From Oscillospiraceae bacterium (lineage in GTDB: Bacteria > Bacillota > Clostridia > Oscillospirales > CAG-272): DNA of 64,000 nucleotides. Below are positions 37,835 through 55,604 of the stretch, one piece after another (positions within the stretch are counted from its first letter, which is position 1; each line of letters starts with the position of its first letter). The notes below the pieces were generated by a model. That model was not told the DNA's origin. It did no database searches and saw nothing but the letters and a program-made list of their open reading frames with translations. Where the stretch lies: NCBI GenBank assembly GCA_015064085.1, contig SVSX01000003.1, positions 9,145 to 73,144 on the forward strand, read 5' to 3'. The translations under genes were made by a program, and so were the position numbers.

Positions 37835-38548
37835 ATGCTGGAGTTTAAGAACGTATCCTACGCCGTTCCCGACGGGCGCGAGATACTTAAAGATATAAAT
37901 CTGGAAATAAACGATCGTTTTGTGGCGATCACAGGACCTAACGGAAGTGGAAAATCCACAATGGCTAAGCTTATTGCGGGTATAATCACTCCTACGTCGG
38001 GCAAGATCTATTTCGACGGTGAGGATATCACCGATATGGGGATTACAGAGAGGGCTAAAAACGGAATAAGCTTTGCTTTTCAGCAGCCTGTTAGATTTAA
38101 GGGAATAACCGTGAAGCGTCTTCTTTCGCTTGCGGCGGGCAAGAATGCGAGTGTTTCCGAGGCTTGTCGCTACCTTTCCGAGGTCGGACTTTGCGCTAAG
38201 GACTATATAAACCGCGAGGTCGACGGCTCTCTTTCGGGAGGCGAGCTCAAGAGGATAGAGATCGCTATGATAAACGCGAGAGGAACTAAGCTCTCTGTCT
38301 TTGATGAGCCCGAGGCGGGAATCGACCTTTGGAGCTTCAACAATCTCATAAAGGTGTTTGAAAATATGCACGAAAGAACTCACGGAAGTATAGTTATCAT
38401 CTCTCATCAGGAGAGAATTCTTAACATTGCCGATAAGGTAGTGGTGCTTTCGGATGGCGGAATTGCCGAATACGGCACGAAGGATGAGGTGCTTCCCAAG
38501 CTTCTCGACGTTCGCGCGGGTTGCAGATTTACCAAGGAGGGCGTGTGA
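37835..38548 (+). CDS. sufC: SufC-like ABC ATPase
   Basis: Walker A GPNGSGKST, signature LSGGELKR, Walker B LSVFDEPEAGID, H-loop ISHQ. Followed by a SufB/D gene. Confidence 0.8.
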   Translation: MLEFKNVSYAVPDGREILKDINLEINDRFVAITGPNGSGKSTMAKLIAGIITPTSGKIYFDGEDITDMGITERAKNGISFAFQQPVRFKGITVKRLLSLAAGKNASVSEACRYLSEVGLCAKDYINREVDGSLSGGELKRIEIAMINARGTKLSVFDEPEAGIDLWSFNNLIKVFENMHERTHGSIVIISHQERILNIADKVVVLSDGGIAEYGTKDEVLPKLLDVRAGCRFTKEGV

Positions 38549-38549
38549 T

Positions 38550-39467: not shown

Positions 39468-39473
39468 TTAGAG

Positions 39474-39516
39474 GCGTTCTTCACGGCATTGTGCCGTGAA
39501 GAACGCTTGCTTTTTT
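39474..39516 (+). terminator. rho-independent terminator after sufBD
   Basis: 15-bp perfect stem GCGTTCTTCACGGCA / TGCCGTGAAGAACGC followed by a T-run. Confidence 0.85.
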
Positions 39517-39992: not shown

Positions 39993-40021
39993 TTGACATT
40001 TTTGCTCCGATATGATAATAT
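39993..40021 (+). promoter_or_regulatory. promoter of the large ABC cassette
   Basis: TTGACA (39993-39998), 17 nt, TGa-TAATAT (40016-40021). Leaves a leader of about 230 nt. Confidence 0.55.
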
Positions 40022-40251
40022 ATCGTTACAAAATTGCGGCAAAAACGATCCTGCGGGCTGTTGAAAGCCCGATTTCGTTTTGCCCGTTTAACAATGCAAA
40101 AAAGCATTGGTTAGTTTCGACACCGTAGCGTTTCTGCCGTATGCCGACGGTATACGCGCGTTCCGCGCGGTCGCGCTCGGTGTCAAAGCCCTTTGACGTG
40201 TCTTCCCACGTCTCTGGGTCAATTCTCAAATTCAGCAGGAGGAAAATTCAA

Positions 40252-43200
40252 ATGAGAAAGACGAAATTTCAAAGAATAACCGCTTTTGCGCTGGCTTTGG
40301 TATTTCTGCTTTGCGGTGGTGTTGGTATCAGCGCGGCTGACGTTGGATCATCCGTTACCGACACATCCTTGAGCGACATTAAGGAATTGCTGAACTCAAT
40401 TTCTTATGAGACCTACAGGGAAAACAACGCGGCAGTTCCGCGCGCAGAGGCAGAGGTGGTTATTGACGCTGCTGCGAATTATGTATTCGTGGCTGCTGAC
40501 GGCACAACTGTTTATACACAGGATTCGGTTATCGAAGAGGGTGTAGACAAGAAGAACGTAGCCTATAAGACGGAGTACGACGGCGTAAGCGGTCTGTATG
40601 TTCCCGGTATGGGTACGGTCTCCTGGACGACGGATCAGATCAAGACCGCTGCTAAGTACAGCATTGAGATCGAATACTATCCCGTTCAGAACAAGGCAGC
40701 TTCCATAGAGAGAGTATTTATGGTAAACGGCGCTGTTCCCTTTGCGGAGGCACGTTATCTGACTATCTCCAAGGTATGGAAGAACGTATATGAGGACGGC
40801 GTCTTCAAGCTCGAAGAGGGCGAGAGCGCAGAGTCTTACGTTACTAAGGCTGCGGAGCTTGGCATTAATGCTGTTTCCGAGGCGAGAAGCGACGGAACTT
40901 ACATTATATATAAAATGCCCTCCGTATGGACAAAGGATGTATCCGAGCTTGTTGATTCTCAGACTATCCGCTTCTTCAAGGAAGACATAGATAGAAACGA
41001 GATCAGAGCAAGCCTTGAGCAGGCTCCCGTATGGACCTCTTACGAGTTCCGTGATGCGAACGGCTTCTATCAGGAGTCCTTCGAGTTTGTTCTTGAGCCT
41101 GACGAGAACGGTCTTGTTACCATCTCTCTTGAGTCGGTAAACGAGCCTATCGCTATATCGAAGATCAAGCTTGTTCCTCATACGGGATATATGACCTATG
41201 AGGAGTATATCAAGCAGTACGAGAACGAGCCCGCGGGAACAGATAGAGTAAAGATAGAGGCAGAGTATTTTGCTAACGCTTCTTCTCAGACGATCTATCC
41301 TCTCGAGGACAAAGCGAGTGCTATCACCTCTCCTACGGCTACCGACAGAACTGTTCTCAACACCATAGGCGGTGAGAAGTGGCAGACTGCGGGTCAGTGG
41401 GTAACATATCAGATGCAGGTTGATGCCAGCGGTATGTACGAGATCGCGGCGCGTTACCGCCAGGCGGTGCTCGACGGTATGTTCGTATCCCGTTCACTTC
41501 ACATTTACAGTGATTCCACTGTTGCTCCCGGCGAAAAAGGATATTACAACGGCATTCCCTTTGCTGAAGCAGCTAACCTTCGCTTTGGATATTCTTCGGA
41601 TTGGCAGTCCGATACAGTTAACGACGGTGAGATAGACACATTCAAGTTCTATTTCAAGGAAGGCGTCGTTTACACGATCAAGATTGAGGTTACTCTTGGA
41701 AGTATGGGAGCGATCGTTAATACGGTCCAGAACTCTCTTGACTCGATCAACCAGGATTACCTTAATATACTTAAGCTCACAGGATCTGAGCCCGACGATA
41801 CCCGTGACTACGGCTTCTCAAGAGTAATGCCCGACACGATGGTCGACCTTATCATCCAGTCCCGCACACTTACTAAGGTTGCTGAGCAGCTCGCTGAGGT
41901 AGCGGGAGACAAGAGCTCGATGACCGCTTCTCTTGAAAAGGTCGCAAGACTTCTTGATACTATGGGTAAGGATGAGGACGAGGTCGCTAAGAACCTTGAA
42001 CAGCTCAAATCCAATATCGGTACTCTTGGTACGTGGCTCGGCGATGCGAAGACCCAGCCTCTCCAGCTTGACTTTATCGTCGTTCAGGGTGACGGACAGG
42101 AGCTCCCCGAGGCAGAAGCAAACTTCTTTAAGGCTATGGTTTACGAGTTCACGAGATTCTTCCAGAGCTTCTTCAGAAACTACGACCGTATGGGCGCTCT
42201 TGAGGAGATAGACGAGGAGGATTCCGTTGAGGTATGGCTTGCGTACGGACGTGACCAGACACAGGTTATCCGAAGCCTTATCAACAACGACTTCACACCT
42301 AAGACGAACGTTGCTGTTGACCTTAAGCTCGTTGCGGGCGGTACACTGCTTCCTTCCATTCTTTCGGGAATGGGTCCTGAGGTCTATATAGGACTCGGAC
42401 AGTCTGACGTTATCAACTACGCTATTAGAGGCGCGCTCCTTCCTATTGATAATCAGGCGACCTTTGATGACGCGATCAAGGAGTTCAACGAGGCGGCAAT
42501 GATCGTTCTCGGAATTGAGAACTCCGCAGGTGAGTTCCATTACTATGGACTCCCCGAAACACAGGCGTTTAATATGATGTTCGTTCGTGAGGACGTTCTC
42601 GCGGACCTTGAGATAGAGATCCCCAGAACATGGGATGACGTTCTTGAGGCTATCCCGATACTTCAGGCGAACAATATGATGATCGGTATGCACACCGACT
42701 ACAAGGTATTCCTTTACCAGATGAACGGTGAGCTTTATGCCGACAACGGAATGAGAATCAACCTCGATTCCAACGTTGCGCTTAACGCGTTCAACACAAT
42801 GTGTAACATGTTTACGATGTACTCATTCCCCTACAAGTATGACTTTGCAAACCGTTTCAGAACGGGTGAAATGCCTATCGGATTCGCGGCTTACGCAGCA
42901 ACCTACAACCAGCTCAAGGTATTCGCAACCGAGATCGAAGGTCTTTGGGGCTTCTACCCGATGCCCGGTTACGAGCAGGCTGACGGAAGCATCAACAATG
43001 TTTCGGTTTCCTCAGTATCCGCGATCGTTATGCTTACAGGCTGCCAGGATGAGGCTGGCGCTTGGGAATTTATGAAGTGGCATTCGGGCGCGTCCTGCCA
43101 GATCGAGTACTCCAACGAGATGGTTGCTCTTATCGGTCCTTCCGCTAAGCACTCTACCGCTAACATTGCGGCTCTTGAGAGTATGCCTTGGACGAATGAG

Positions 43201-43680
43201 GAATACATTCAGCTTTCTTACCAGTTCGATAACCTCGCTTCTATTCCTAACTACCCCGGAAGCTATATTATCGACCGTTACACCAACTTCGCGTTCCTTG
43301 ACGCATTCAACAATGCGGCAGACCCCGTAACAGAGCTTCAGAGCTACATTACGACGATCAACAAGGAGATCACACGTAAGCGTACTGAGTTTGAGCTTGA
43401 AACTCTCGATTATGTCGGACAGACACTCGCAGAGAAGAGAATGACTCAGGCAGCAGAAAAGATCGAGGAGCTTAAGACCTCCTCGGGATACACCGCAACA
43501 TACGACGCTGTCTGCCAGAGAGCGATCGACACAATGGATGGCGGTGAAACAGATGACTATGCTTCTCTCAGATCGGCAGCAGATGCTTTTGAAGAAGCAA
43601 ATGCCGAATTCTTCGCCGACGTTATCAAGTATTTGAGAAGCGCCGCAGATTCACTTGAATCGTACGAAGCATATAAATAA
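40252..43680 (+). CDS. giant secreted solute-binding protein: two CBM-like beta-sandwich modules, helical linker, family-1 SBP domain and helical tail
   Basis: AGGAGG RBS before MRKTKFQRI and a signal peptide. CBM6/35-like segment KIEAEYFANASS...GQWVTYQMQVDASGMYEIAARY. SBP core VEVWLAYGRDQTQVIRSLINNDFTPKTNVAVDLKL... Confidence 0.75.
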   Translation: MRKTKFQRITAFALALVFLLCGGVGISAADVGSSVTDTSLSDIKELLNSISYETYRENNAAVPRAEAEVVIDAAANYVFVAADGTTVYTQDSVIEEGVDKKNVAYKTEYDGVSGLYVPGMGTVSWTTDQIKTAAKYSIEIEYYPVQNKAASIERVFMVNGAVPFAEARYLTISKVWKNVYEDGVFKLEEGESAESYVTKAAELGINAVSEARSDGTYIIYKMPSVWTKDVSELVDSQTIRFFKEDIDRNEIRASLEQAPVWTSYEFRDANGFYQESFEFVLEPDENGLVTISLESVNEPIAISKIKLVPHTGYMTYEEYIKQYENEPAGTDRVKIEAEYFANASSQTIYPLEDKASAITSPTATDRTVLNTIGGEKWQTAGQWVTYQMQVDASGMYEIAARYRQAVLDGMFVSRSLHIYSDSTVAPGEKGYYNGIPFAEAANLRFGYSSDWQSDTVNDGEIDTFKFYFKEGVVYTIKIEVTLGSMGAIVNTVQNSLDSINQDYLNILKLTGSEPDDTRDYGFSRVMPDTMVDLIIQSRTLTKVAEQLAEVAGDKSSMTASLEKVARLLDTMGKDEDEVAKNLEQLKSNIGTLGTWLGDAKTQPLQLDFIVVQGDGQELPEAEANFFKAMVYEFTRFFQSFFRNYDRMGALEEIDEEDSVEVWLAYGRDQTQVIRSLINNDFTPKTNVAVDLKLVAGGTLLPSILSGMGPEVYIGLGQSDVINYAIRGALLPIDNQATFDDAIKEFNEAAMIVLGIENSAGEFHYYGLPETQAFNMMFVREDVLADLEIEIPRTWDDVLEAIPILQANNMMIGMHTDYKVFLYQMNGELYADNGMRINLDSNVALNAFNTMCNMFTMYSFPYKYDFANRFRTGEMPIGFAAYAATYNQLKVFATEIEGLWGFYPMPGYEQADGSINNVSVSSVSAIVMLTGCQDEAGAWEFMKWHSGASCQIEYSNEMVALIGPSAKHSTANIAALESMPWTNEEYIQLSYQFDNLASIPNYPGSYIIDRYTNFAFLDAFNNAADPVTELQSYITTINKEITRKRTEFELETLDYVGQTLAEKRMTQAAEKIEELKTSSGYTATYDAVCQRAIDTMDGGETDDYASLRSAADAFEEANAEFFADVIKYLRSAADSLESYEAYK

Positions 43681-43703
43681 AATCTGATAAGGAGAGAAAA
43701 GCA

Positions 43704-44651
43704 ATGTCACAAAAAACGGCAGAGAAAAAGGCTGTTGCGCGCAAGGACATGACAAAGATGCAATGGACGCTTAAAGAGATCAAGCGTAATAAAGTTGCGT
43801 ATTTCATGATCGCGCCTTACATGCTCATCTTTACTTGCTTTACAGTATTGCCTGTTGTGCTTTCGATGTTTATGAGCCTTACCGACTTTAACATGTTGGA
43901 AATGCCCAATATCGTCTGGCTCGACAACTACATCAGACTCTTCCTTGATGATGACATCTTCCTTATAGCCGCTAAGAATACACTTATCTTCGCGGTGATC
44001 GTAGGACCTGTGTCTTATATCATGTCATTTATGGTGGCGTGGTTCATCAACGAATTGTCACCGAAGATAAGAGCTCTCGTAACTCTCGTCTTCTATGCAC
44101 CTTCCATTTCAGGTCAGGTTTACCTCGTATGGGCGACCCTCTTCTCGAGTGACTCCTACGGTTGGGCAAACGCTTGGCTGATGAAGCTTGGAATTATAAC
44201 AAAAGAAATAAACTTCTTCCAGGATGCGAAATACGTAATGCCTCTTTGTATCGTAGTTGCTCTCTGGACGTCTCTCGGTACTTCGTTCCTTTCCTTCATC
44301 GCGGGTCTTCAGGGTGTTGACAGAGCACTCTTTGAGGCAGGCGCTGTTGACGGAATCAAAAACAGATGGCAGGAGCTCTGGTATATCGTACTTCCCAGTA
44401 TGAGACCTCAGCTGATGTTCGGTGCGGTTATGGCTATCACCTCTTCCTTCGGCTTCGGCGGAATAGTTACCGCGCTCTGCGGCTTCCCCTCGGTTGACTA
44501 CGCGGCGCACACCATAATGCACCATCTTGATGACTACGGCTCTCAGCGTTTTGAGATCGGTTACTCATCAACGATAGCGGTTATATTGTTTGCCGTGATG
44601 ATCGGCGCAAATATGCTGGTTAAAAAAGTTCTTTCAAAGGTGGGCGAGTAA
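43704..44651 (+). CDS. sugar ABC transporter permease (MalF/LplB-like), pair 1
   Basis: LplB-type N-terminus (LKEIKRNKVAYFMIAPYML). EAA loop region ALFEAGAVDGIKNRWQELWYIVLP. Confidence 0.85.
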   Translation: MSQKTAEKKAVARKDMTKMQWTLKEIKRNKVAYFMIAPYMLIFTCFTVLPVVLSMFMSLTDFNMLEMPNIVWLDNYIRLFLDDDIFLIAAKNTLIFAVIVGPVSYIMSFMVAWFINELSPKIRALVTLVFYAPSISGQVYLVWATLFSSDSYGWANAWLMKLGIITKEINFFQDAKYVMPLCIVVALWTSLGTSFLSFIAGLQGVDRALFEAGAVDGIKNRWQELWYIVLPSMRPQLMFGAVMAITSSFGFGGIVTALCGFPSVDYAAHTIMHHLDDYGSQRFEIGYSSTIAVILFAVMIGANMLVKKVLSKVGE

Positions 44652-44652
44652 T

Positions 44653-45525
44653 ATGGCAAAGTTAAGAACAAGAAAACATAAAGTCGTACTTGCCCGTTCC
44701 GTCGGTGGTGACATGGGAATCACGGTGATACTGTTCATACTCGGTATTTTCATGTTCCTTCCTATGTATTATACGGTCATCCAGTCTCTCAAGCCTCTTG
44801 ATGAGCTCTGGATGTTCCCCCCGAGATTTTACGTAACACGTCCTACGGGCAGAAACTACACAGACCTGTTCACACTTATGGATACGTCTGTAGTACCTTT
44901 CACAAGATACATCTTCAATACCGTCTTCACATCGGTAACAGGTACATTCGGAAACCTCTTCTTCTCGTCCCTCGCGGCTTACGCAATGGCTAAGATCGCG
45001 TTCCCCGGCGGAAAGACGATGTTTAAGCTGGTAAGAACATCTCTTATGTTCCACCAGACGGTTACCGCGGTAACAAGCTTTATCCTTATGAGTGCTTTCC
45101 ATATCATCGATACATATTGGGCGATCATAATTCCTGCTTGGGCAACCTCCCTTGGACTTTACCTTATGAAGCAGTTTATGGATACCCACGTTAATGACTC
45201 GGTGCTTGAAAGTGCAAGACTTGACGGAGCGAGCGAGCTTAAGACCTGGTGGGTCATCGCAATGCCTATGGTTAAGCCCGCGTGGCTCACACTTATAATC
45301 TATTCGTTCCAGGACCTCTGGAACAGAGGCGCGTCTATCTACATTCACTCCGAGGATCTCAAGTCGTTTAACTACGCGATCCAGCAGATCACAGCCGGAG
45401 GAATCAAGCGTGCCGGTGCAAGTGCGGCGGCAACCGTTATTATGATGATGGTTCCGATACTTGTATTCGTTATAACCCAGTCTAACATCATTGAAACAAT
45501 GGGTTCGAGTGGTATGAAGGACTAA
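44653..45525 (+). CDS. carbohydrate ABC transporter permease (MalG/LplC-like), pair 1
   Basis: EAA motif ESARLDGASELKTWWVIAMPMVKP. Six TM segments. Confidence 0.85.
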   Translation: MAKLRTRKHKVVLARSVGGDMGITVILFILGIFMFLPMYYTVIQSLKPLDELWMFPPRFYVTRPTGRNYTDLFTLMDTSVVPFTRYIFNTVFTSVTGTFGNLFFSSLAAYAMAKIAFPGGKTMFKLVRTSLMFHQTVTAVTSFILMSAFHIIDTYWAIIIPAWATSLGLYLMKQFMDTHVNDSVLESARLDGASELKTWWVIAMPMVKPAWLTLIIYSFQDLWNRGASIYIHSEDLKSFNYAIQQITAGGIKRAGASAAATVIMMMVPILVFVITQSNIIETMGSSGMKD

Positions 45526-45540
45526 TCGGAGGAGGAGAAA

Positions 45541-47772
45541 ATGAAAAAATTAACATCTATTATATGTTTGATGTTTGCGTTTGTTCTGATATTGGCTCTT
45601 CCTGTAAGCGCATCCGCGCCGTATGAGACCTATACCTACTCCATTAACGGAACAGCTCTTTCGTCACCCGACGCGTACATTCCCGTAAAAACGGTCGATG
45701 CTATCGCAATGGGTCTCAATGATGATGCAACATTTAAGGAGTTATATCCTGATCTGACAAATGCAAAGACAATTGAGGCTAAGAAGACTCTTGCAAACCC
45801 CGCAGACCTTGAGGTCGATGATCAGATGAACGTTTATATCGCTGATACCGATAATAACAGAATTCTGGTTCTTGACCGTTACTACAAGATAAAGTTCGTT
45901 ATCGAGGGATTCGTTAACGATCAGGGCGTTAAGGATGCTCTTGCAGGTCCTAAGGGTGTGTTTATCACATCCGACAAGGTCGTAAACGGTGAGGTCGTTC
46001 CCGGACGAATCTTCGTTTGCGATACAGTAAACAGCAGAATCGTAACCTTTAACCGCGACGGTGAATTCCTTGGAATAATTCCTCAGCCCGAGTCCGAGCT
46101 CTTCGAGGAAGGCGCAGTTTATAAGCCTGTTGCCGTGGCTGTTGACCAGTACGACAGAATGTATGTCGTATCCGAGACAACCTATCAGGGTATCATCGTT
46201 ATGACTGACACCGGAGAATTCACAGGATTTATCGGAGCACAGAAGGCTACTGTAGGACTTTGGGACCTTATCTGGAGAAGATTCCAGACAGAGGCTCAGA
46301 GAGCAAAGACCGATAAGGTCCTCTCAACAGAGTTCAACAACATCACCATTAATGATGGCGGATTTATCTACGTTACCACATCCTCTATCGAGGAGGCGAG
46401 CGTTGCTTCCGCTATCAACAGTAAGAGTAAGAGCGGTGAGTACGCTCCCGTTAAGATGCTCAACGCGGCAGGTGAGGAGATCATGAGACGTAACGGTTTC
46501 TATCCTCCTTCCGGTGAAGTTGATATGGCAAAGGCAAAGGTAACCGACACCGCTCTTGGTCCGTCCAAGATCGTTGACGTTGCCATAGGTCCTGAGCAGA
46601 CCTGGTCGATCATAGACCAGAAGCGAAGCAAGGTGTTCACATATGACTATGACGGAAACCTCCTCTTCGCGTTCGGTGATACGGGTGAACAGCTCGGTAA
46701 TATCACATCCCAGGGACTTAACGCGATCGTATATCAGGGCGACACAATGCTTCTCCTTGATAAGACCGCAAAGTCTATTTCGGTTTTCCAGCGTACAGAG
46801 TATGGTGATATCATCGTAAAGGCACTTGAAAACCAGAACAACCGCCAGTATGATAAGTCGATTGACGACTGGATGGAGATCCTTAAGAGAAACTCTAACT
46901 TTGACGCAGCTTACATCGGAATCGGAAACGCTCTTTACAGAAGCGGTCAGTTCGAGGAAGCTATCGAGTATTACAAGGCTGCATACGATACAGAAAACTA
47001 CTCCAACGCATACAAGGAGCTCAGAAAAGAGTGGATCTCCAAGTATATCATTTGGATCCCGATCGTTGCTATCGCTATTATCGTCGCTTGGTCAAAGTTT
47101 ATGAAGTTTGCCAAGAAGGTCAATAAGCGTACAGCGACCGCGGGCGGAAAACGTACATACGTTCAGGAATTGCTCTACGTGTTCCACGTAATGTTCCATC
47201 CCTTTGACGGCTTCTGGGATATGAAGCACGAGAAGAGAGGTTCGGTAAGAGCAGGTGCAACGATCCTTGTTATAGCACTTGCGGCATTCTACTACCAGAA
47301 TATCGGTTCGGGTTACATTAACAATCCTCAGGAGATCTATGGAACGATCTTCTCCGTATCCCTCGGAGTTATCATTCCTCTCGTTCTCTGGATTGTCGCA
47401 AACTGGTGTCTCACAACACTGTTCGACGGAGAGGGAAGCATCAAGGATATCTTTATAGCAACAACATACTCCTTAGCTCCTCTCGTTCTCTGTATGGTTC
47501 CCGCAACCATCGCGTCCAACTTCGTTGTCGCTGCAGAAGCTGATATCGTCAGCCTGCTTGTAACACTTGGATTTATCTGGGCAGGACTTCTCATATTCCT
47601 CGGAATGATGGTCACACACGACTACTCCCTTGGAAAGAACGTTCTCACCAGCCTTGGAACAATCGTTGGAATGGTTTGCATAATGTTTATAGCAATACTC
47701 TTCACAACACTTTTGGGCAAGCTCGTAAGCTTTGTTTCCAACATCGTTATCGAGCTCCAGTACCGAGCGTAA
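45541..47772 (+). CDS. secreted NHL-repeat beta-propeller, TPR and C-terminal Yip1-type polytopic membrane domain protein
   Basis: Signal peptide. About six NHL-like blades (VYIADTDNNRILVLD, IFVCDTVNSRIVTFNRDGEF ...). TPR-like YRSGQFEEAIEYYKAAY. C-terminal five-TM Yip1-like region (FHPFDGFW...). Confidence 0.7.
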   Translation: MKKLTSIICLMFAFVLILALPVSASAPYETYTYSINGTALSSPDAYIPVKTVDAIAMGLNDDATFKELYPDLTNAKTIEAKKTLANPADLEVDDQMNVYIADTDNNRILVLDRYYKIKFVIEGFVNDQGVKDALAGPKGVFITSDKVVNGEVVPGRIFVCDTVNSRIVTFNRDGEFLGIIPQPESELFEEGAVYKPVAVAVDQYDRMYVVSETTYQGIIVMTDTGEFTGFIGAQKATVGLWDLIWRRFQTEAQRAKTDKVLSTEFNNITINDGGFIYVTTSSIEEASVASAINSKSKSGEYAPVKMLNAAGEEIMRRNGFYPPSGEVDMAKAKVTDTALGPSKIVDVAIGPEQTWSIIDQKRSKVFTYDYDGNLLFAFGDTGEQLGNITSQGLNAIVYQGDTMLLLDKTAKSISVFQRTEYGDIIVKALENQNNRQYDKSIDDWMEILKRNSNFDAAYIGIGNALYRSGQFEEAIEYYKAAYDTENYSNAYKELRKEWISKYIIWIPIVAIAIIVAWSKFMKFAKKVNKRTATAGGKRTYVQELLYVFHVMFHPFDGFWDMKHEKRGSVRAGATILVIALAAFYYQNIGSGYINNPQEIYGTIFSVSLGVIIPLVLWIVANWCLTTLFDGEGSIKDIFIATTYSLAPLVLCMVPATIASNFVVAAEADIVSLLVTLGFIWAGLLIFLGMMVTHDYSLGKNVLTSLGTIVGMVCIMFIAILFTTLLGKLVSFVSNIVIELQYRA

Positions 47773-47791
47773 ACAGATAGGAGGAAGAAAA

Positions 47792-50700
47792 ATGATGATA
47801 AAAAGAATACTTTCGACCTTTTTAGCTGTGATTATGCTTATGGGATCATTTGCGGTCCTTACCTTCGCTGAGGAAGGCGCAGGTGAAACGACAGAGACAG
47901 AAAAGGTAGAATATACATACAATACCACGTCAGAAAAGCCCTCGATGGACTACCTTAAGGGTATGACTATCGTAGAGCTTGACAAAGACGGTAATCCCGT
48001 TGTTGAGGGAGCAGTACCTACTCCCATCGTAACAAAGGAAGATAAGCTCGCAACCATGGACCTTCGCTTCGAGAAGGACGGCTACCGCCTTTACGTAGAC
48101 GCCTACAGCGGAGAGGTCGCAACTGTTTGCGTAGCAACGGGTGAAATACTCTTCACAAACCCTTATAACACGGGAAGCCAGAAGGCACAGCCCGAAATTA
48201 AGGAAAAGCTGCTCTCCCAGATCGTCGTTAAGTATGCCGACAAGGCAAACAACGGTGAGACCAAGGAGTTCTACAGCTTTGAGGAAACAATTCAGGGTGA
48301 GTCGGATGATACCCCTTACCCTCCCAGCCAGATCGACGTAAAGAATATCAAGAACGGTATTCGTGTTGAGTACACGATCGGTCGTGAAGAGGCAAGAATG
48401 CTTCTTCCTATGCAGATCGAAAAGTCTGCTTTCGAGACCAAGATCCTCGAGGTTATGGCATCCAACCTTGATGACGGAGTAAAGAACTTCACATACAGAC
48501 AGTTCGAATCCTTCTACAGACTTCAGGACCCCGATGCAGCGCCCAGTGAGGAAATGAGAAAGCTTATGCTGGATCTTTACCCCATCACAAAGAAGATGGA
48601 CGTTTATATACTCGATTCCTCCCTCACGTCCGTTAAGAAGGCAAGAGCAGAGTCCTACATCAAGACCTACTGCCCCAGCTACACTTACGAGCATCTGGAA
48701 GAGGACCATCTCTACGCAGAATATGAGGCTAAGGACGAGAATCCTCCTCTGTTCAAGATGGCACTTGAGTATACTCTCGGAACTGACGGAGTTAGCGTAA
48801 GACTTCCTTCGAACGGTATCCGTTTCAATGAGTCGCTCTACCAGCTCGAGCATATCGAGATCCTCCCCTTTATGGGTGCGGGTGCTAACCCCAACGCGGG
48901 TTATACCTTCTATCCCGACGGATCGGGCGCTCTCTTCGATTTCCAGAAGATAGCTAACTCGGGTACAAAGACCGTCGTTACGGGTAAGATATACGGTCAG
49001 GACTACGTTTACCACGAGATCATAGGTAAGCATCAGGAGATCGTAAGATATCCTGTATTCGGACTCGTTGAGACCGAAAGCTACGTTGTAACAAAGGATA
49101 CCGGAAAGGTAGATCCCGAAACGAACACTGCTATTACCGAGGAAGTAACAGAATATCAGGATCGCGGATTCTTCGCGATAGTTGAAGAGGGTGAGGCTCT
49201 TATGGAGCTGACCACCGAGCATGAGGTCAAGCAGCATCCCTTCAATACAGTTAAAATGAAGGTTCGTCCCAGACCTTCCGACAAGTATAACGTCGCGGAC
49301 GCTATCTCTGTTGGTGAAAACAAGGAATTTACCGTTGTTTCGCCCAGAAAGTACGCGGGAAGCTTCAAGGTCAAGTATATTATGCTGACCGATGAGGACC
49401 TTGCTAAGGAAAAGGGACTTGAGAACACATACGATACCGATTATATGGGAATGGCTAAGGCATACAGAGATTATCTCGAAAAGAACGGCACTCTTACCAG
49501 ACTCACAGAAGAGGATGTATCCGAGGATATTCCTCTCTACATCGAGACATTCGGTGCTCTCGAAACAACAAAGAAGGTTCTTTCCATCCCTGTAAGCACA
49601 ATGGCTCCTCTTACATCCTTTGAGGATATCAAGACGATGCACAAGGAGCTCAGCGCAGAGGGCGTAAAGAATATCAACTTTATCCTTACAGGCTATACCA
49701 AGGGCGGTATGACCGAGATCGCTTATCCTTCTGATCTTAAGTGGGAAAAGGCGGTCGGCGGTGAGGAAGGATTCGAGGATCTCGTTGCTTACGCAAAAGA
49801 GAACAAGATCGGAATATTCCCCGACTTTGACTTCGTATTCCTCGCAAACAACACACTTACAGACGGCGTAAGCCTTAAGAATCACGCTGTTAAGACTATC
49901 GATAACAGATATACAAGTAAGCGTGTTTACAGTGCTACCAAGCAGACACACATAAGCTACTATGAGCTTGCGATCTCTCCCGCATATTTCCACGAGTTCT
50001 ATGAGGGCTTCACTGAGAAATATCTCGAGAGCGATCCTATCGGTATTTCGGTTTCAACTCTCGGATATTATCTTAACTCCGACTTTGACGAGGATGAGCC
50101 TTACAACCGTGAGGACTCCAAGGAGTTCACCATTGACGCGTTCAAGCACTTTGATGAGAAATACTCCAAGGTAATGACCTCAGGCGGTAACTCCTACTCT
50201 TGGAAGTACGTTGACTACATTACCGACGTTGCTCTTGACTCCAGCCGTTACGCTCAGGCAGCGGCATCTGTACCTTTCCTTGGAATCGTTCTCCACGGTT
50301 ACGTTCAGATCGCGGGAACACCTATCAATATGGAAGGTAACATCGATTACACCCTTCTTAAGGCAATCGAAAACGGCGCATCGCTCAACTTTATCCTTTC
50401 TTATCAGAACACAGACCTCCTCAAGGAGTCTGTAATATACAACCAGTATTACTCTGTAAGATATGATATCTGGTTCAGCGACGTTGTAAACCTTTATAAT
50501 GAGCTTAACGCACTCCTTAAGGATCTTCAGACGAGCGTTATCGTTGACCACAAGTTCCTTGTAGGTGAGCGTGTTCCCGATGCGGATGAGCTTGAGGCTG
50601 ATGCTCGCGCAGAGCTTGAAGCGGCAATAGAGCTTGAAAAGGCTCTCAAGGAAGCTGCTACAGAGAGTGAGAGAAAGGCGATCCGCGCGGCACTCGACGG

Positions 50701-51382
50701 AATTGTTACAAACACAAATCAGGTATCCACATACCTCAGCTCGATAGAGACAAAGCTCGTGTCTCTCGCAAAATATGATTTCGATGCCGCAATGGCAGCT
50801 GTTGACGCAGCAAAGCTTGCTTACGATGCAGACGTTAATTCCGCTGATCTCAAGAAGGCGTATGAAGATGCAGTAACCGCTGCAACCAATACACTTAATA
50901 TGATCTACGGATACGCGGAGGGTATTTCAACCGACGCTCAGTTTGCAGATCGTTACCAGGGATTTGCTAAGGAAAACATAGACTTCATTATTGCAAACTC
51001 CAAGCTTAGCGATGCTGTCATCAATGACTACCAGCTCGTTGTTGACGCAAGTGCTGCAGTAAATGCTCAGATCCAGGCAAAGGCTGCTGATATAAAGGCT
51101 ATCGCAGTTGCTGCATACGAAAAGATCAAGGTTCACGAGACCACAACAGCTAAGCCCTTCGAGGATAAGCTTATAAATCCTGTAACTCCTCCTCCCGCAG
51201 GAACGGTAGAGGAAGAGGAGAAGCCTGTTTCCAGATATATTTCTGACGACAACAAGATCATTCTTGTTTCGTACAGCAATGGAACATCCTTCATTCTTAA
51301 CTTCAACGATTACGACATTACAACAGTCGTAAACGATACAGTTTACACAGTCGTATCTTACGGATACGTTGTACTCAAATAA
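47792..51382 (+). CDS. 1196-aa secreted protein of unknown function (possibly DUF5696-like, possible glycosidase-like core) with Ala/Asp/Glu-rich helical C-terminal region
   Basis: GGAGGAAG RBS before MMIKRIL and a signal peptide. Central region with IGIFPDFDFVF, SGGNSYSWKY, FLGIVLHGY. C-terminal ~250 aa helical, then a small beta domain. Confidence 0.6.
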   Translation: MMIKRILSTFLAVIMLMGSFAVLTFAEEGAGETTETEKVEYTYNTTSEKPSMDYLKGMTIVELDKDGNPVVEGAVPTPIVTKEDKLATMDLRFEKDGYRLYVDAYSGEVATVCVATGEILFTNPYNTGSQKAQPEIKEKLLSQIVVKYADKANNGETKEFYSFEETIQGESDDTPYPPSQIDVKNIKNGIRVEYTIGREEARMLLPMQIEKSAFETKILEVMASNLDDGVKNFTYRQFESFYRLQDPDAAPSEEMRKLMLDLYPITKKMDVYILDSSLTSVKKARAESYIKTYCPSYTYEHLEEDHLYAEYEAKDENPPLFKMALEYTLGTDGVSVRLPSNGIRFNESLYQLEHIEILPFMGAGANPNAGYTFYPDGSGALFDFQKIANSGTKTVVTGKIYGQDYVYHEIIGKHQEIVRYPVFGLVETESYVVTKDTGKVDPETNTAITEEVTEYQDRGFFAIVEEGEALMELTTEHEVKQHPFNTVKMKVRPRPSDKYNVADAISVGENKEFTVVSPRKYAGSFKVKYIMLTDEDLAKEKGLENTYDTDYMGMAKAYRDYLEKNGTLTRLTEEDVSEDIPLYIETFGALETTKKVLSIPVSTMAPLTSFEDIKTMHKELSAEGVKNINFILTGYTKGGMTEIAYPSDLKWEKAVGGEEGFEDLVAYAKENKIGIFPDFDFVFLANNTLTDGVSLKNHAVKTIDNRYTSKRVYSATKQTHISYYELAISPAYFHEFYEGFTEKYLESDPIGISVSTLGYYLNSDFDEDEPYNREDSKEFTIDAFKHFDEKYSKVMTSGGNSYSWKYVDYITDVALDSSRYAQAAASVPFLGIVLHGYVQIAGTPINMEGNIDYTLLKAIENGASLNFILSYQNTDLLKESVIYNQYYSVRYDIWFSDVVNLYNELNALLKDLQTSVIVDHKFLVGERVPDADELEADARAELEAAIELEKALKEAATESERKAIRAALDGIVTNTNQVSTYLSSIETKLVSLAKYDFDAAMAAVDAAKLAYDADVNSADLKKAYEDAVTAATNTLNMIYGYAEGISTDAQFADRYQGFAKENIDFIIANSKLSDAVINDYQLVVDASAAVNAQIQAKAADIKAIAVAAYEKIKVHETTTAKPFEDKLINPVTPPPAGTVEEEEKPVSRYISDDNKIILVSYSNGTSFILNFNDYDITTVVNDTVYTVVSYGYVVLK

Positions 51383-51401
51383 TTAAAGGGAGGTAATGAA
51401 A

Positions 51402-52355
51402 ATGACAAAAGACGTAAAAGTAAAAGCACCCAAAAAGAGAAAATCAGCCTCCCTTGAAAGACGTAAGGCGCGTGGCGGATGGATATTTGTCGCACCCTTC
51501 GTTATCGGATTTTTGCTGATCTACCTTCCTATGGTAGTTGATTCGATCACATACAGCTTTAACACAATTAAGGTCATCCCCGGCGTAGGATATGAGCTTA
51601 TTCCTGTTGGATGGGCAAACTACTACGAAGCGCTCTTCGATGACCCCGACTACCTGCAGACCCTTATCAAGGGATTGCAGACACTCGCCCTTGACGTTCC
51701 TATGATAATCATCTTCTCGCTCTTTATGGCGGTTCTTCTGAACCAGAAGATGGCAGGACGCGCGGCGTTCAGAGCGATCTTCTTCCTCCCCGTTATTCTT
51801 TCAACGGGTATTATGGAGGAGATCAGAGCATCCAACGCATTTACCGAGTACGCGGGAAGCACTGAGGGTATCGACGACGGATCGGGACAGAACGCATCCT
51901 CCGAGATCGTTTCCTCGATGGACGTTGAGCGACTCTTCTCGGGAATGGCAGTTGGTGAAGGACTTGTTGAGTACGTAGCTCAGGCAATCAACAACATTTA
52001 CAACATTGTAAACCGTTCAGGTGTACAGATGCTTATATTCCTTTCGGGTCTTCAGTCTATCTCTCCCGCTATCTATGAGTCGGTTCAGATCGACGGAGCA
52101 ACCGCTTGGGAGACCTTCTGGAAGATAACATTCCCGATGATAACGCCTATGATCCTAGTTAACGTGGTCTATACGATCATTGACTCGTTTACGACCAACT
52201 CCAACCAGGTCATGGTATTTATCCAGAATATGTACACAGAGAACAACGTTCTCAGCTCTGCAATGGCGTGGATTTATTTCCTGGTAGTAATACTGATCCT
52301 TGCTGTGGTATCTGCCATTATGTCGGCATTCGTATTCTACCAGAGACGTGATTGA
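51402..52355 (+). CDS. sugar ABC transporter permease (MalF-like), pair 2
   Basis: GGGAGG RBS. Basic N-terminus then TMs. EAA region YESVQIDGATAWETFWKITFPMITP. The alternative ATG at 51396 is too close to the RBS. Confidence 0.8.
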   Translation: MTKDVKVKAPKKRKSASLERRKARGGWIFVAPFVIGFLLIYLPMVVDSITYSFNTIKVIPGVGYELIPVGWANYYEALFDDPDYLQTLIKGLQTLALDVPMIIIFSLFMAVLLNQKMAGRAAFRAIFFLPVILSTGIMEEIRASNAFTEYAGSTEGIDDGSGQNASSEIVSSMDVERLFSGMAVGEGLVEYVAQAINNIYNIVNRSGVQMLIFLSGLQSISPAIYESVQIDGATAWETFWKITFPMITPMILVNVVYTIIDSFTTNSNQVMVFIQNMYTENNVLSSAMAWIYFLVVILILAVVSAIMSAFVFYQRRD

Positions 52356-52368
52356 GAGGAGGATAACA

Positions 52369-53484
52369 ATGAACGCACAACAGATCGATAATAAGCCGAA
52401 GGTACAGAAAGAGTCTAAGAATAAAATAAGAGTTGAGTTTGAGAGAACACCTCTTAAAGAAAGACTCAAGGCTAAATTCCTCTCATTGTTCTTCCTTAAG
52501 AAGGTAGTTTGGTACATCTTCAGACTTGTTCTTCTTATTGGTATCGCGTACGTGGTACTTTTCCCCTTCTTCTCCGAGGTCGCGGGCTCAATAATGGCGC
52601 CTCAGGACTTCAAGGACGTTGAAGTTAGACTTATTCCTAAGAATTTTTCACTTGATATCTACAAAGCAATATGGACCGAGCTTGAGTACGTAAAGGCGTT
52701 TACCAATACCCTCATTCTCGCACTTGTAACGGCTTTGATCCAGACCTTCATATGCAGCTTCGTTGCATACGGTCTCGCAAAGTTTAAGTTCAAGGGCAAC
52801 AAGCTTGTATTCTTTGCAGTTATCTTCTCGCTGGTAGTTCCTCATCAGACACTTCAGCTCTCGCTCTTTATGGAGTTCCGTTATTTCGATATTCTCGGAA
52901 TAGCAAAGCTGCTCAACGGCGGCGGAATCGAGCTCTTCGGACGCACATTCCTTCAGTCGATAGACGTGATCCCCGATTCGTGGAAGCTCTTCACACCCGG
53001 TGGAATTACACTTACAAACACCTATTGGCCTTGGATAATCCTCTCCCTTTCGGGTCTCGCGTTTAAGAACGGTCTTTACATCTTCTTGCTCAGACAGTTC
53101 TTCAAGGGCGTTCCCGATGAGCTTGAGGAGTCGGCGTACATGGACGGCTCGGGTATTATAAAGACATTCTTCTCTATAATCCTGCCTCTTTCCGTGCCTA
53201 TGATGATCACGGTATTCCTCTTCGCCTTCTCTTGGCAGTGGACAGATACCTTCTACACAGACACATTCTTCACGATCCAGGATAAGGCAAAGCTCCTTCC
53301 CAAGATCGTTGGAATTCCCGACTCTCTTTCGGGAGTGGTCGACCCCGCTTACCAGAATCTCTACTATGCGGCGATCAGAAACACCTGCGGAATTATGATA
53401 ATAGCTCCGCTGGTCGTACTCTATCTCTTCTGCCAGAGATTCCTTGTTCAGGGTATCGAGCGTTCGGGACTTACAGCGGATTGA
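52369..53484 (+). CDS. carbohydrate ABC transporter permease (MalG-like) with long N-terminal extension, pair 2
   Basis: GAGGAGG RBS before MNAQQID. EAA region ESAYMDGSGIIKTFFSIILPLSVP. Confidence 0.8.
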   Translation: MNAQQIDNKPKVQKESKNKIRVEFERTPLKERLKAKFLSLFFLKKVVWYIFRLVLLIGIAYVVLFPFFSEVAGSIMAPQDFKDVEVRLIPKNFSLDIYKAIWTELEYVKAFTNTLILALVTALIQTFICSFVAYGLAKFKFKGNKLVFFAVIFSLVVPHQTLQLSLFMEFRYFDILGIAKLLNGGGIELFGRTFLQSIDVIPDSWKLFTPGGITLTNTYWPWIILSLSGLAFKNGLYIFLLRQFFKGVPDELEESAYMDGSGIIKTFFSIILPLSVPMMITVFLFAFSWQWTDTFYTDTFFTIQDKAKLLPKIVGIPDSLSGVVDPAYQNLYYAAIRNTCGIMIIAPLVVLYLFCQRFLVQGIERSGLTAD

Positions 53485-53522
53485 TCGAAAAAATTCGCAA
53501 AAACTCAAAAAAACAAAAAATA

Positions 53523-53557
53523 CCCACGGTTTCTTTACGAAGCCGTGGGCTTTTTTT
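53523..53557 (+). terminator. rho-independent terminator ending the ABC cassette
   Basis: CCCACGGTTTC / GAAGCCGTGGG stem followed by a TTTTTTT run. Confidence 0.8.
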
Positions 53558-55601: not shown

Positions 55602-55604
55602 ATA

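What the first reader, a model, noticed from the sequence alone, without database searches (positions are those of the whole stretch)
45541..47772. Extracellular NHL beta-propeller fused through a TPR segment to a Yip1-type membrane domain inside a transporter operon
After a signal peptide I count about six NHL-like blades. Examples are VYIADTDNNRILVLD, IFVCDTVNSRIVTFNRDGEF, MYVVSETTYQGIIVMTDTGEF and WSIIDQKRSKVFTYDYDGNL. A TPR-like helix pair (GQFEEAIEYYKAAY) follows, then one TM helix and a five-TM region beginning ELLYVFHVMFHPFDGFWDMKHEKRG, typical of Yip1 domains. Bacterial Yip1-domain proteins are essentially uncharacterised. Placement between two permease pairs suggests a structural or gating partner of the transporter.
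Basis: partly seen in the sequence, partly recalled or inferred. Interest (0 to 1): 0.6.

Follow-up and report, generated by a model that had tools for sequence, protein, structure and literature searches.

The report
Yip1-propeller subunit of sugar importer
A membrane protein with an outward-facing six-bladed propeller and a Yip1-type membrane domain is always encoded beside a glycosidase-like protein and sugar-importer channel genes in gut Clostridia, so it is probably an undescribed accessory subunit of a carbohydrate uptake machine.

Summary
ORF 45541-47772 (+) encodes a 743-aa protein with a signal peptide, a six-bladed NHL propeller, about two TPR pairs, one TM helix, a basic cytoplasmic linker and a five-TM Yip1 domain (Pfam E 2.8e-17; AF2 pLDDT 93.8). 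It is the fourth gene of a seven-gene operon (about 40030-53550): a 1142-aa solute-binding protein, permease pair A1/B1, NHL-TPR-Yip1, a DUF5696 protein with a GH129-like fold, and permease pair A2/B2.

The linkage is very tight. DUF5696 follows directly in 109 of 109 loci, and an A2/B2-type permease pair follows that in 94 of 94, down to about 27-32% identity. A minimal form is Yip1-DUF5696-A2-B2-small SBP. In 26 of 43 distant loci the protein is split into two adjacent genes, ectodomain plus TM anchor and Yip1, so the window gene fuses two partners. The best-conserved segments lie on the predicted cytoplasmic face of the Yip1 domain.

My best reading (inferred) is a membrane scaffold that holds the secreted DUF5696 enzyme and/or the giant binding protein at the importer. 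I found no paper that mentions DUF5696 or this module. It is a new variant of a known kind.

The parts
39993..40021 (+). Promoter-like site for the operon (TTGACA-17-TAATAT with an upstream TG). It follows the strong terminator at 39472-39508 that closes the upstream suf-like genes.
   Evidence: consensus scan only
40252..43680 (+). Giant solute-binding protein, 1142 aa from the ATG with a GGAGG site. It has a type-I signal peptide with no canonical lipobox, an N-terminal extension of about 600 aa of unknown fold, an SBP_bac_1 domain and a C-terminal helical tail of about 160 aa.
   Evidence: SBP_bac_1 E 1.5e-16 and SBP_bac_8 E 5.5e-13 when segment 42061-43200 is scanned alone. PDB sequence hit to the Lin1841 sugar-binding protein, E 1.6e-4. 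N-terminus and lipobox survey. Ribosome-binding site.
43704..44651 (+). Permease A1 (MalF/UgpA-like, CUT1 type)
   Evidence: BPD_transp_1 and UgpA-like hits. Orthogroup A1 always follows the big SBP.
44653..45525 (+). Permease B1 (MalG/UgpE-like)
45541..45615 (+). Signal peptide of the NHL-TPR-Yip1 protein (aa 1-25, MKK, hydrophobic core, VSASA|PY)
   Evidence: Conserved in nearly all of the 150 representatives.
45616..46794 (+). Extracellular six-bladed NHL beta-propeller (aa 26-418). The conserved N-terminal PYxTYTY strands probably close the ring (inferred from the strand order).
   Evidence: AF2 model, Foldseek against NHL domains, Pfam NHL
46795..47046 (+). TPR-like helical stalk (aa 419-502, five helices, about two TPR pairs)
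   Evidence: Pfam TPR_1 and TPR_2 above cut-off, PDB consensus TPR hits, AF2 helices
47047..47115 (+). TM helix 1 (aa 503-525), running from outside to inside. In split-gene relatives this is the C-terminal anchor of the ectodomain protein.
47116..47244 (+). Basic cytoplasmic linker and the conserved motif HPFDGFWDxKHEKRG (aa 526-568). The gene fission point in relatives lies in this linker.
47245..47772 (+). Five-TM Yip1 domain (aa 569-743) and stop codon. It includes the most conserved segment of the protein, NWCLTTLxDGEG (aa 621-632), on the predicted cytoplasmic face.
   Evidence: Pfam Yip1, AF2, conservation
47792..51382 (+). DUF5696 protein, 1196 aa: signal peptide, N-terminal beta-sandwich, TIM-barrel-like core, a coiled-coil insertion of about 180 aa and a small C-terminal beta domain. 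It is the invariable downstream partner.
   Evidence: Pfam DUF5696 E 1.2e-136. AF2 pLDDT 75. Foldseek best matches GH129 (E 8e-19), then GH36 and GH31. Synteny 109/109.
51396..52355 (+). Permease A2, a divergent MalF-like protein and half of the core pair of the module
52369..53484 (+). Permease B2 (MalG-like, 371 aa from the ATG with a GGAGG site), the other half of the core pair
53523..53549 (+). Intrinsic-terminator-like hairpin (11 bp stem, 7 GC pairs, T-run) that ends the operon

Best explanation
The gene encodes an accessory membrane subunit of a multi-component carbohydrate ABC importer of Gram-positive gut Clostridia.

Shown: it is a type-I-oriented membrane protein. The NHL propeller and TPR stalk face outwards. 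A single TM helix leads to a cytoplasmic linker and a five-TM Yip1 bundle. It is a fusion of two proteins (SP-NHL-TPR-TM and Yip1) that are separate, translationally coupled genes in many relatives. It is encoded directly upstream of a secreted DUF5696 protein with a GH129-like fold in every locus examined, and that protein is followed by a specific permease pair (A2/B2).

Inferred: the Yip1 bundle sits in the membrane beside the A2/B2 translocator. Its highly conserved cytoplasmic face contacts the permease loops or the shared, trans-encoded ATPase. The propeller and TPR ectodomain docks the DUF5696 enzyme and/or the giant binding protein, neither of which has its own membrane anchor in this clade. 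Glycan capture, trimming and import would then happen in one assembly. This would parallel the way the Yip1 protein YknW modulates assembly of the ABC exporter YknXYZ.
For: Architecture and topology.

Single operon: promoter-like site, flanking terminators, a GGAGG site before each of the seven genes, and short or no gaps between them.

Synteny: the same seven-gene order in all sufficiently long loci from 80 species. DUF5696 is next in 72/72 + 37/37 loci, and a permease pair follows it in 64/64 + 30/30. The same holds for individually looked-up members at 32-41% identity.

Orthogroups: A2/B2 and A1/B1 are distinct ancient groups with fixed positions. The minimal module is Yip1-DUF5696-A2-B2-small SBP.

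Gene fission and fusion: 26 of 43 distant loci encode the ectodomain with TM anchor and the Yip1 domain as two genes with overlapping or abutting stop and start codons. A lone TM anchor is evidently not enough, because the separate Yip1 gene is always kept.

Conservation: the highest-scoring segments are 621-632 and 553-564 on the cytoplasmic face of the Yip1 part.

Anchoring: big SBPs (75 of 95) and DUF5696 proteins (90 of 108) lack a canonical lipobox, and the window's copies have type-I signal peptides and no C-terminal anchor.

Carbohydrate context: SBP_bac_1, UgpAE/MalFG-like permeases, and variable neighbouring CAZymes and AraC or LacI regulators in other lineages.

Precedent: YknW, and Yip1 genes in bacteriocin ABC exporter clusters (PMC4887032, PMC4338810, PMC10707071).
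Against: No physical interaction was tested, and no multimer modelling or co-evolution analysis was possible. All evidence for partnership is genomic.

Some DUF5696 and big SBP homologues in other clades do have lipoboxes or N-terminal signal anchors, so tethering cannot be the universal role.

The signal peptide of DUF5696 could be an uncleaved anchor.

The YknW precedent concerns a MacB-type exporter with a membrane fusion protein, which is a different ABC architecture.

The substrate is unknown. In the window's clade the operon sits among housekeeping genes without a regulator or CAZymes, so a role in nutrient glycan use is not shown for this organism.
Confidence: 0.5

Rival explanations
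1. The propeller is itself the working part. It would be a lectin-like glycan-capture domain or an enzyme (lyase, lactonase or esterase type six-bladed propeller) acting on the substrate at the cell surface, and the Yip1 domain would be only a membrane anchor.
For: It is extracellular and sits in a carbohydrate import operon. Some homologues give weak sub-threshold hits to enzymatic propeller families: SGL, arylesterase, phytase-like and strictosidine-synthase-like. Virginiamycin B lyase appears among the fold matches.
Against: In split-gene relatives the ectodomain already has its own TM anchor, yet a separate Yip1 gene is always retained next to it. The most conserved parts of the protein are the cytoplasmic loops of the Yip1 domain, not the propeller. 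The invariant or near-invariant polar residues of the ectodomain include the Asp residues of the repeated NHL motifs at 98-109 and 157-168, and no invariant His, Glu or Lys was seen there. The closest folds are protein- and RNA-binding NHL domains.
Confidence: 0.2
2. It is a transmembrane regulator. The ectodomain would sense substrate, or occupancy of the enzyme or binding protein. The Yip1 cytoplasmic face would then recruit or gate the shared MsmK/MsmX-type ATPase, or coordinate the two translocators A1/B1 and A2/B2.
For: The strongest conservation is on the predicted cytoplasmic face (HPFDGFWDxKHEKRG, NWCLTTLxDGEG, THDYS). No ATPase gene lies in the operon or anywhere in the window, so one must be recruited in trans. 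Eukaryotic Yip1 proteins bind cytosolic GTPases through their cytosolic side (general knowledge, not tested here).
Against: There is no recognisable cytoplasmic signalling domain. The minimal variants have only one translocator, so coordinating two cannot be the core role. Nothing here tests contact with an ATPase.
Confidence: 0.15
3. The adjacency has no functional meaning. The protein would be an unrelated surface or membrane protein that happens to sit inside a transporter operon.
For: None beyond the absence of experimental data.
Against: The order is conserved in 109 of 109 and 94 of 94 loci, down to about 27-32% identity and across rearranged variants (L088, L109) and minimal variants (L083, L084, L127), with overlapping or closely abutting genes.
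Confidence: 0.02

Closest known systems
YknW of the Bacillus subtilis four-component ABC exporter YknWXYZ (and Yip1 family genes such as BawG in bacteriocin clusters with HlyD, ATPase and permease genes)
   Same: A bacterial Yip1-family polytopic membrane protein encoded in an operon with ABC transporter membrane components. YknW is reported to act as an accessory that modulates assembly of the transporter (PMC4887032, PMC4338810, PMC10707071). Both match Pfam Yip1.
   Different: YknW-type proteins are small, about 220 aa in the case of BawG, and are not described with an ectodomain. Their partners are MacB/FtsX-type exporters with a membrane fusion protein. Here the partners are type-I importer permeases (BPD_transp_1, MalFG/UgpAE-like), a solute-binding protein and a glycosidase-like protein. 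The Yip1 domain is also fused or paired with a 480-aa NHL-TPR ectodomain.
Eukaryotic Yip1/Yif1/YIPF Golgi and ER proteins (Pfam PF04893)
   Same: A five-TM bundle with a cytoplasmic N-terminal side and short loops. Conserved motifs sit just before TM1 and just after it (here PFDGFWD and GY).
   Different: There is no Rab or vesicle-trafficking context in bacteria. An extracellular propeller is fused through an extra TM helix. PDB holds no sequence relative of the Yip1 part.
CUT1-family carbohydrate ABC importers of Firmicutes (MalEFG/UgpBAE-like, with a shared MsmX/MsmK-type ATPase encoded elsewhere)
   Same: An SBP_bac_1 binding protein, two MalF/MalG-type permeases with EAA-like loops visible in the sequences, no ATPase in the operon, and CAZyme and AraC or LacI neighbours in many lineages.
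   Different: There are two permease pairs of distinct ancient orthogroups. The binding protein is about 950-1150 aa and mostly lacks a lipobox. Two extra obligatory genes are present (NHL-TPR-Yip1 and DUF5696). In the window's clade the A2/B2 pair has no small SBP of its own.
GH129 glycoside hydrolases (Bifidobacterium NagBb alpha-N-acetylgalactosaminidase, Zobellia 3,6-anhydro-D-galactosidase) and the GH31 and GH36 families. This comparison is for the partner protein DUF5696.
   Same: The same overall fold order of beta-sandwich, TIM barrel and C-terminal beta domain (Foldseek E 8e-19 to 1e-11, TM-score about 0.59 relative to the target).
   Different: There is no significant sequence relationship (profile against PDB E 0.22 over 67 residues). 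Catalytic residues could not be mapped. The window's clade has a coiled-coil insertion of about 180 aa.
NHL-repeat six-bladed propellers (TRIM71/Lin-41, Brat, Thin, PknD sensor domain)
   Same: A six-bladed NHL fold with DxxNxRI-type blade motifs. PknD is another bacterial extracellular NHL propeller attached to a TM protein (PDB 1rwi hit).
   Different: Helical insertions are present between blades (54-81, 240-256, 285-293). The propeller is followed by a TPR stalk and a Yip1 membrane domain, and there is no kinase or E3 ligase context.

Membership tests
Yip1 domain (Pfam PF04893) | Sequence match above the curated gathering score | tested here: met
   63.6 bits against a cut-off of 28.6, E 2.8e-17, covering profile positions 1-171 of 173. 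The same holds in all ten variant homologues scanned.
Yip1 domain (Pfam PF04893) | A polytopic bundle of five TM helices with the N-terminal side in the cytoplasm | tested here: met
   Hydropathy, AF2 helices at 569-742, and the positive-inside count of 12.0 against 2.2 K+R
Yip1 domain (Pfam PF04893) | Conserved DLYGP-like and GY motifs flanking the first TM helix (as I recall the family description) | tested here: inconclusive
   The family consensus has FHPFDGFWDLK just before Yip TM1 and GY(x)FN just after it. The positions are analogous but the sequences are not identical. No eukaryotic sequences were aligned.
Yip1 domain (Pfam PF04893) | Interaction with Rab GTPases or a Yif1 partner | not testable with these tools
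   No such partners are encoded nearby, and the function is presumably different in bacteria.
NHL-repeat six-bladed beta-propeller | NHL repeat match and a closed six-blade fold | tested here: met
   Pfam NHL 25.9 bits against 20. AF2 shows six four-stranded blades. Foldseek gives TM-score 0.75-0.80 against TRIM71 and Thin NHL domains, E 1e-14.
TPR repeats | A helix-turn-helix pair matching TPR profiles | tested here: met
   TPR_1 28.9 against 27.8 and TPR_2 28.8 against 27 at 457-482. Consensus TPR proteins are the top PDB sequence hits. Five helices span 420-502. Only one repeat passes the threshold, so the segment is short.
CUT1-type ABC importer operon | Two MalF/MalG-type permeases (BPD_transp_1) plus an SBP_bac_1 binding protein | tested here: met
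   EAA-like loops can be read directly in all four permease sequences.
CUT1-type ABC importer operon | A MalK/MsmK-type ATPase encoded with the system | tested here: not met
   None in the operon or the 64-kb window, and none in the related loci with called genes. By established knowledge many Firmicute CUT1 systems use a shared ATPase encoded elsewhere, so this does not exclude the family.
YknWXYZ-type four-component exporter | A MacB/FtsX-type permease, its ATPase and an HlyD-type membrane fusion protein alongside the Yip1 protein | tested here: not met
   The permeases are BPD_transp_1 importer type, and no membrane fusion protein or ATPase is present. This is an analogy only, not membership.
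GH129 / GH31 / GH36 glycoside hydrolases (for the DUF5696 partner) | Fold: N-terminal beta-sandwich plus (beta/alpha)8 barrel | tested here: met
   Foldseek E 8e-19 to GH129, weaker to GH36 and GH31. The model is of moderate quality (pLDDT 75).
GH129 / GH31 / GH36 glycoside hydrolases (for the DUF5696 partner) | Sequence membership and conserved catalytic carboxylates | tested here: inconclusive
   No significant sequence match.

The most novel reading that the evidence does not exclude
NHL-TPR-TM plus Yip1, DUF5696 and the A2/B2 pair together form a previously undescribed kind of ABC importer. A Yip1-domain protein would be an integral extra membrane subunit, and its propeller would hold a GH129-like enzyme directly over the translocator. 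Hydrolysis products would then be fed into the permease without a dedicated binding protein. In the window's clade the A2/B2 pair has no small SBP of its own (66 loci). This would also give the first defined molecular role for a Yip1 domain, as a membrane adaptor for a transport machine, and that could inform the poorly understood eukaryotic Yip1/YIPF proteins.
Probability: 0.12. Interest if true: 0.85.

Novelty: new variant of a known kind. Interest (0 to 1): 0.6.

Why it matters
Gut and rumen Clostridia are major degraders of complex glycans, and their Gram-positive uptake systems are much less well understood than the Bacteroidetes Sus-like systems. This work defines a widespread, strictly conserved module: at least 1346 protein clusters at 50% identity match at E<=1e-30, and relatives were confirmed at 260 sites in a collection holding one genome per species. 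The module adds two obligatory, unstudied components to an otherwise ordinary sugar ABC importer, namely a Yip1-domain protein with an NHL propeller and a glycosidase-like DUF5696 protein. If the scaffold idea is right, it shows how Gram-positive cells keep secreted enzymes and giant binding proteins at the transporter. It would also provide a tractable bacterial system, with defined genetic partners and natural split and fused forms, for working out what a Yip1 domain actually does. It gives DUF5696 a fold assignment and a functional context as well.

Tried and rejected
- Literature: 'DUF5696' gave 0 papers. 'Yip1 domain' + 'NHL' gave only irrelevant eukaryotic papers. 'YIP1 family protein' with 'glycoside hydrolase' or 'carbohydrate ABC transporter permease' gave nothing relevant. 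The primary YknW paper (PMC3416220) is not held, so YknW is cited through PMC4887032 and PMC4338810.
- PDB by sequence: no relative for the Yip1 part, none for DUF5696 apart from coiled-coil noise and a weak 67-residue match to NagBb, and none for the N-terminal 573 aa of the big SBP.
- A 45-sequence alignment was too diverse for the metagenome scan. A 10-sequence one worked, but loci from L132 onward (L132-L166) are generic NHL proteins and were ignored.
The DUF5696 model therefore rests on a shallow alignment (50-87% identity) and has only moderate confidence.
- Cluster-member look-ups for 20 diverse representatives returned only MAG or unnamed entries. No cultured organism was identified.
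- Rfam found no riboswitch or leader RNA for the operon, only three tRNAs elsewhere in the window.
- Rejected: chance adjacency. Rejected: a cytoplasmic propeller. Rejected: membership of the YknWXYZ exporter type.
Full report
**1. The observation**

ORF 45541-47772 (+) is intact and encodes 743 aa. It has a GGAGG ribosome-binding site 6-9 nt upstream of the ATG.

- Pfam finds a full-length Yip1 domain at 548-718 (E 2.8e-17, 63.6 bits against a gathering score of 28.6), one TPR above threshold at 457-481, and one NHL repeat above threshold at 84-110.
- An AlphaFold2 model built on 104 homologues is very confident (mean pLDDT 93.8, pTM 0.86). It shows a six-bladed propeller (about 30-418, with helical insertions), five TPR-like helices (420-502), a long TM helix (503-533), two short cytoplasmic helices (540-563) and five TM helices (569-742).
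- Foldseek's best solved-structure matches are the six-bladed NHL domains of TRIM71, Thin and Brat (E about 1e-14, TM-score 0.75-0.80 relative to the target).

**2. Topology**

The N-terminus is a classical signal peptide (MKK, hydrophobic core, VSASA|PY). After TM1 comes a basic stretch of 46 residues. Across the 104-sequence alignment, the loops predicted to be cytoplasmic carry on average 12.0 Lys+Arg, and those predicted to be outside carry 2.2. The propeller and TPR stalk are therefore extracellular, and the Yip1 domain has its N-terminal side in the cytoplasm.

**3. The operon**

A strong terminator at 39472-39508 closes the upstream suf-like genes. A promoter-like site lies at 39993-40021, and a strong terminator at 53523-53549 follows the last permease gene. 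Seven genes lie between them, each with a GGAGG site and with short or no gaps:

- A 1142-aa binding protein at 40252-43680. SBP_bac_1 scores E 1.5e-16 when its segment is scanned alone, and it gives a weak PDB sequence hit to the Listeria sugar-binding protein Lin1841.
- Permeases A1 and B1.
- The NHL-TPR-Yip1 gene.
- A 1196-aa DUF5696 protein (E 1.2e-136).
- Permeases A2 and B2.

The four permeases are UgpAE/MalFG-like. No ABC ATPase is encoded in the operon or anywhere in the window. By established knowledge this is common for Firmicute CUT1 sugar importers, which share an ATPase encoded elsewhere.

**4. How widespread it is, and how linked**

The word-indexed search gave 3953 homologues at E<=1e-5. 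The top 120 are all full length with the same Pfam set, and those that carry a name are called 'YIP1 family protein' or 'tetratricopeptide (TPR) repeat protein', from Clostridia MAGs. The exhaustive search of 50%-identity representatives gave 7417 hits at E<=1e-3 and 1346 at E<=1e-30. Nearly all of the best 150, down to 32% identity, keep signal peptide, ectodomain of about 450 aa, TM helix and five-TM Yip1.

In a collection with one genome per species, relatives were confirmed at 260 sites and the best 80 loci were kept. All 80 come from rumen, hindgut or human-gut Clostridia/Oscillospiraceae-type MAGs. Every locus long enough shows the identical seven-gene order.

I then targeted distant members in two ways: eight individual look-ups, and a metagenome scan seeded on a 32%-identity member. 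The pooled counts are:

| Feature | GTDB species loci (L001-080) | Distant loci (L081-131) |
|---|---|---|
| DUF5696 immediately downstream | 72/72 | 37/37 |
| Permease pair immediately after DUF5696 | 64/64 | 30/30 |
| Permease pair immediately upstream | 67/67 | 32/35 |

The three upstream exceptions are a minimal form, Yip1-DUF5696-A2-B2-small SBP (L083, L084, L127). A permuted form also exists (L088, L109).

The two permease pairs are distinct, ancient orthogroups. A2/B2 always follows DUF5696, and A1/B1 always follows the big binding protein. The core of the system is therefore [NHL-TPR-Yip1 + DUF5696 + A2 + B2], and [big SBP + A1 + B1] is a usual but dispensable second block.

**5. A natural gene split**

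In 26 of 43 distant loci, and in none of 79 close ones, the protein is encoded by two adjacent genes.

- The first gene ends just after TM1 with a short basic tail.
- The second gene (about 205-225 aa) begins just before the HPFDGFWDxKHEKRG motif.
- The stop and start codons overlap or abut (for example GCATGATG in L103 and TAAATGG in L089).

These are real separate genes, not frameshifts. The window protein is thus a fusion of a type-I anchored ectodomain protein and a stand-alone Yip1 protein. This is classical evidence that the two work together. It also shows that the Yip1 part is not merely an anchor, because the ectodomain already has its own.

**6. Where conservation sits**

Across the 104-sequence alignment the two most conserved 12-residue windows of the whole protein are NWCLTTLxDGEG (621-632) and HPFDGFWDxKHE (553-564). 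THDY (about 693-696) is also high. All three lie on the predicted cytoplasmic face of the Yip1 part. The propeller is less conserved on average, and its best segments are the repeated NHL blade motifs. This points to a conserved cytoplasmic or intramembrane contact. Candidates are the permease loops and the trans-encoded ATPase. This step is inference.

**7. The partner DUF5696**

The AF2 model is of moderate quality (pLDDT 75, pTM 0.65). It shows a signal peptide, a beta-sandwich, a TIM-barrel-like core, a coiled-coil insertion of about 180 residues and a small C-terminal beta domain.

Foldseek's best matches are GH129 enzymes: the Zobellia 3,6-anhydro-D-galactosidase (E 8e-19) and Bifidobacterium NagBb (E 1e-12). 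GH36 and GH31 enzymes follow. There is no significant sequence relationship to any solved structure.

Several acidic residues are invariant or nearly so, even with 22-30% identical members included: D376 and E860, then D678, D680, D704 and D764. I could not map them onto catalytic positions. DUF5696 therefore has a GH129-like fold, and its activity is unproven.

**8. Anchoring**

Most big binding proteins (75 of 95) and most DUF5696 proteins (90 of 108) lack a canonical lipobox. By contrast, 14 of 23 small binding proteins in the same loci have one (this is a crude regular-expression test with some false positives).

The window's two proteins have type-I signal peptides (ISA|AD, TFA|EE) and no C-terminal anchor. 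In a Gram-positive cell, such proteins would be lost unless something holds them. That is the basis for proposing that the propeller and TPR ectodomain docks them. Other clades have lipoboxes or signal anchors, so tethering cannot be the whole story.

**9. Context**

In other lineages the module sits beside varied CAZymes: GH2, GH130 with GH113, two GH18, GH88 with GH38, GH43 with GH39, and a pectate-lyase-like protein. AraC or LacI regulators are also nearby. It therefore looks like a general-purpose glycan-import chassis rather than a system for one sugar.

In the window's clade it sits between suf-like genes and rny, among housekeeping genes, with no regulator or CAZyme nearby. The substrate in this organism is unknown.

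**10. Comparison with what is known**

- **Closest functional precedent:** B. subtilis YknW, a Yip1-family membrane protein that is an accessory component of the ABC exporter YknXYZ and affects assembly of the complex (PMC4887032, PMC4338810, both citing Yamada et al. 2012). Related Yip1 genes occur in bacteriocin clusters with HlyD, ATPase and permease genes (PMC10707071).
- **Not a member of that system:** the transporter here is a type-I importer (BPD_transp_1), with no MacB-type permease or membrane fusion protein.
- **Ordinary CUT1 importers:** this module differs by having two extra obligatory genes, a giant binding protein that mostly lacks a lipobox, and two permease pairs.
- **Literature:** no held paper mentions DUF5696, and none links a Yip1 protein to sugar ABC importers.

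**11. Verdict**

The best explanation (confidence about 0.5) is an accessory scaffold subunit. It would link a secreted GH129-like protein and/or the giant binding protein to the A2/B2 translocator, with a conserved cytoplasmic contact.

Rivals:

- The propeller is the active lectin or enzyme and Yip1 is just an anchor (0.2). The split forms and the conservation pattern weaken this.
- It is a transmembrane regulator of ATPase recruitment (0.15).
- The adjacency is chance (effectively refuted).

Novelty: a new variant of a known kind. Interest: 0.6. The most novel reading not excluded is an enzyme-fed ABC importer that needs no binding protein and has a Yip1 adaptor subunit (probability about 0.12).

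Noticed in passing
L089, L093, L098, L101, L103, L105-L110, L116-L121, L123 and others (for example L103:9998-11440 and 11434-12093): In 26 of 43 distant loci the NHL-TPR-TM part and the Yip1 part are two adjacent genes with overlapping or abutting stop and start codons. The window gene is the fused form.
   Followed up: yes
window 51396-53484, and all close loci L001-L080: In the window's clade the core permease pair A2/B2 has no small binding protein of its own in the cluster. Many distant loci do encode one (about 430-510 aa, usually a lipoprotein). Which protein delivers substrate to A2/B2 here is unexplained.
   Followed up: partly
window 40252-42060: The first 600 aa or so of the giant binding protein match nothing in Pfam or in PDB by sequence. 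Stretches such as IEAEYF...GQWVTYQMQV...GMYEIAARY look like a CBM6/35-type sugar-binding module to me, but that is only my reading. SBP_bac_1 was detected only when the SBP segment was scanned on its own.
   Followed up: partly
window 50580-51130 (DUF5696 aa 931-1112): A three-helix coiled-coil insertion of about 180 residues, rich in Ala, Glu and Lys, is specific to the window's clade. Distant DUF5696 proteins are 825-950 aa and lack it. The C-terminal tail of the big binding protein is also helical and Ala-rich. Whether the two helical regions pair is unknown.
   Followed up: no
L094:12221-14150: Two extra genes are inserted between Yip1 and DUF5696. One is a 352-aa protein with a WFWWG motif that looks GH26-like (my reading), and the other is a 237-aa lipoprotein. 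This is the only locus where DUF5696 is not immediately adjacent.
   Followed up: partly
P0213 (576 aa), P0130 (998 aa), P0131 (912 aa), P0184 (883 aa): Variant architectures. In P0213 a DUF4988 domain replaces the NHL propeller in front of TPR + Yip1. The others carry N-terminal extensions of 150-320 aa of unknown nature.
   Followed up: partly
window 32000-36000: A low-GC island (0.36-0.38 against about 0.48 elsewhere). It holds an LRR_4 protein (34280-35254, -) and two ORFs without Pfam matches (31524-32138 and 32345-33028, both -). It sits next to CotJB (35918-36487, -) and a Mn-catalase/CotJC-like gene (35296-35904, -), so the organism is probably a spore former.
   Followed up: no
window 25678-28808 (-): Three tandem paralogues of M42 glutamyl aminopeptidase, next to a methionine gamma-lyase family gene (24410-25666) and a Mg-chelatase ChlI-like (YifB/ComM-type) gene (28827-30368).
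   Followed up: no
window 20594-21682 (-): A surface protein with BspA-type leucine-rich repeats and a MucBP domain, suggesting adhesion to host mucus.
   Followed up: no
window 4168-6183 (+): A fusion of a GT4 glycosyltransferase with a polysaccharide pyruvyl transferase domain (671 aa).
   Followed up: no
window 9496-15950 (+) and 55524-55793 (-): An rnf-type electron transport operon (RnfC, RnfD and an FMN-binding subunit identified). Separately, a tRNA-His/Arg/Gly cluster lies downstream of rny.
   Followed up: no
window 37835-38548 and 38454-39467 (+): The longest ORFs of the SufC-like ATPase gene and the following SufB/D-like gene overlap by 95 nt, so the true start of the second is probably later. 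This gene pair is conserved upstream of the operon in many of the close loci.
   Followed up: no
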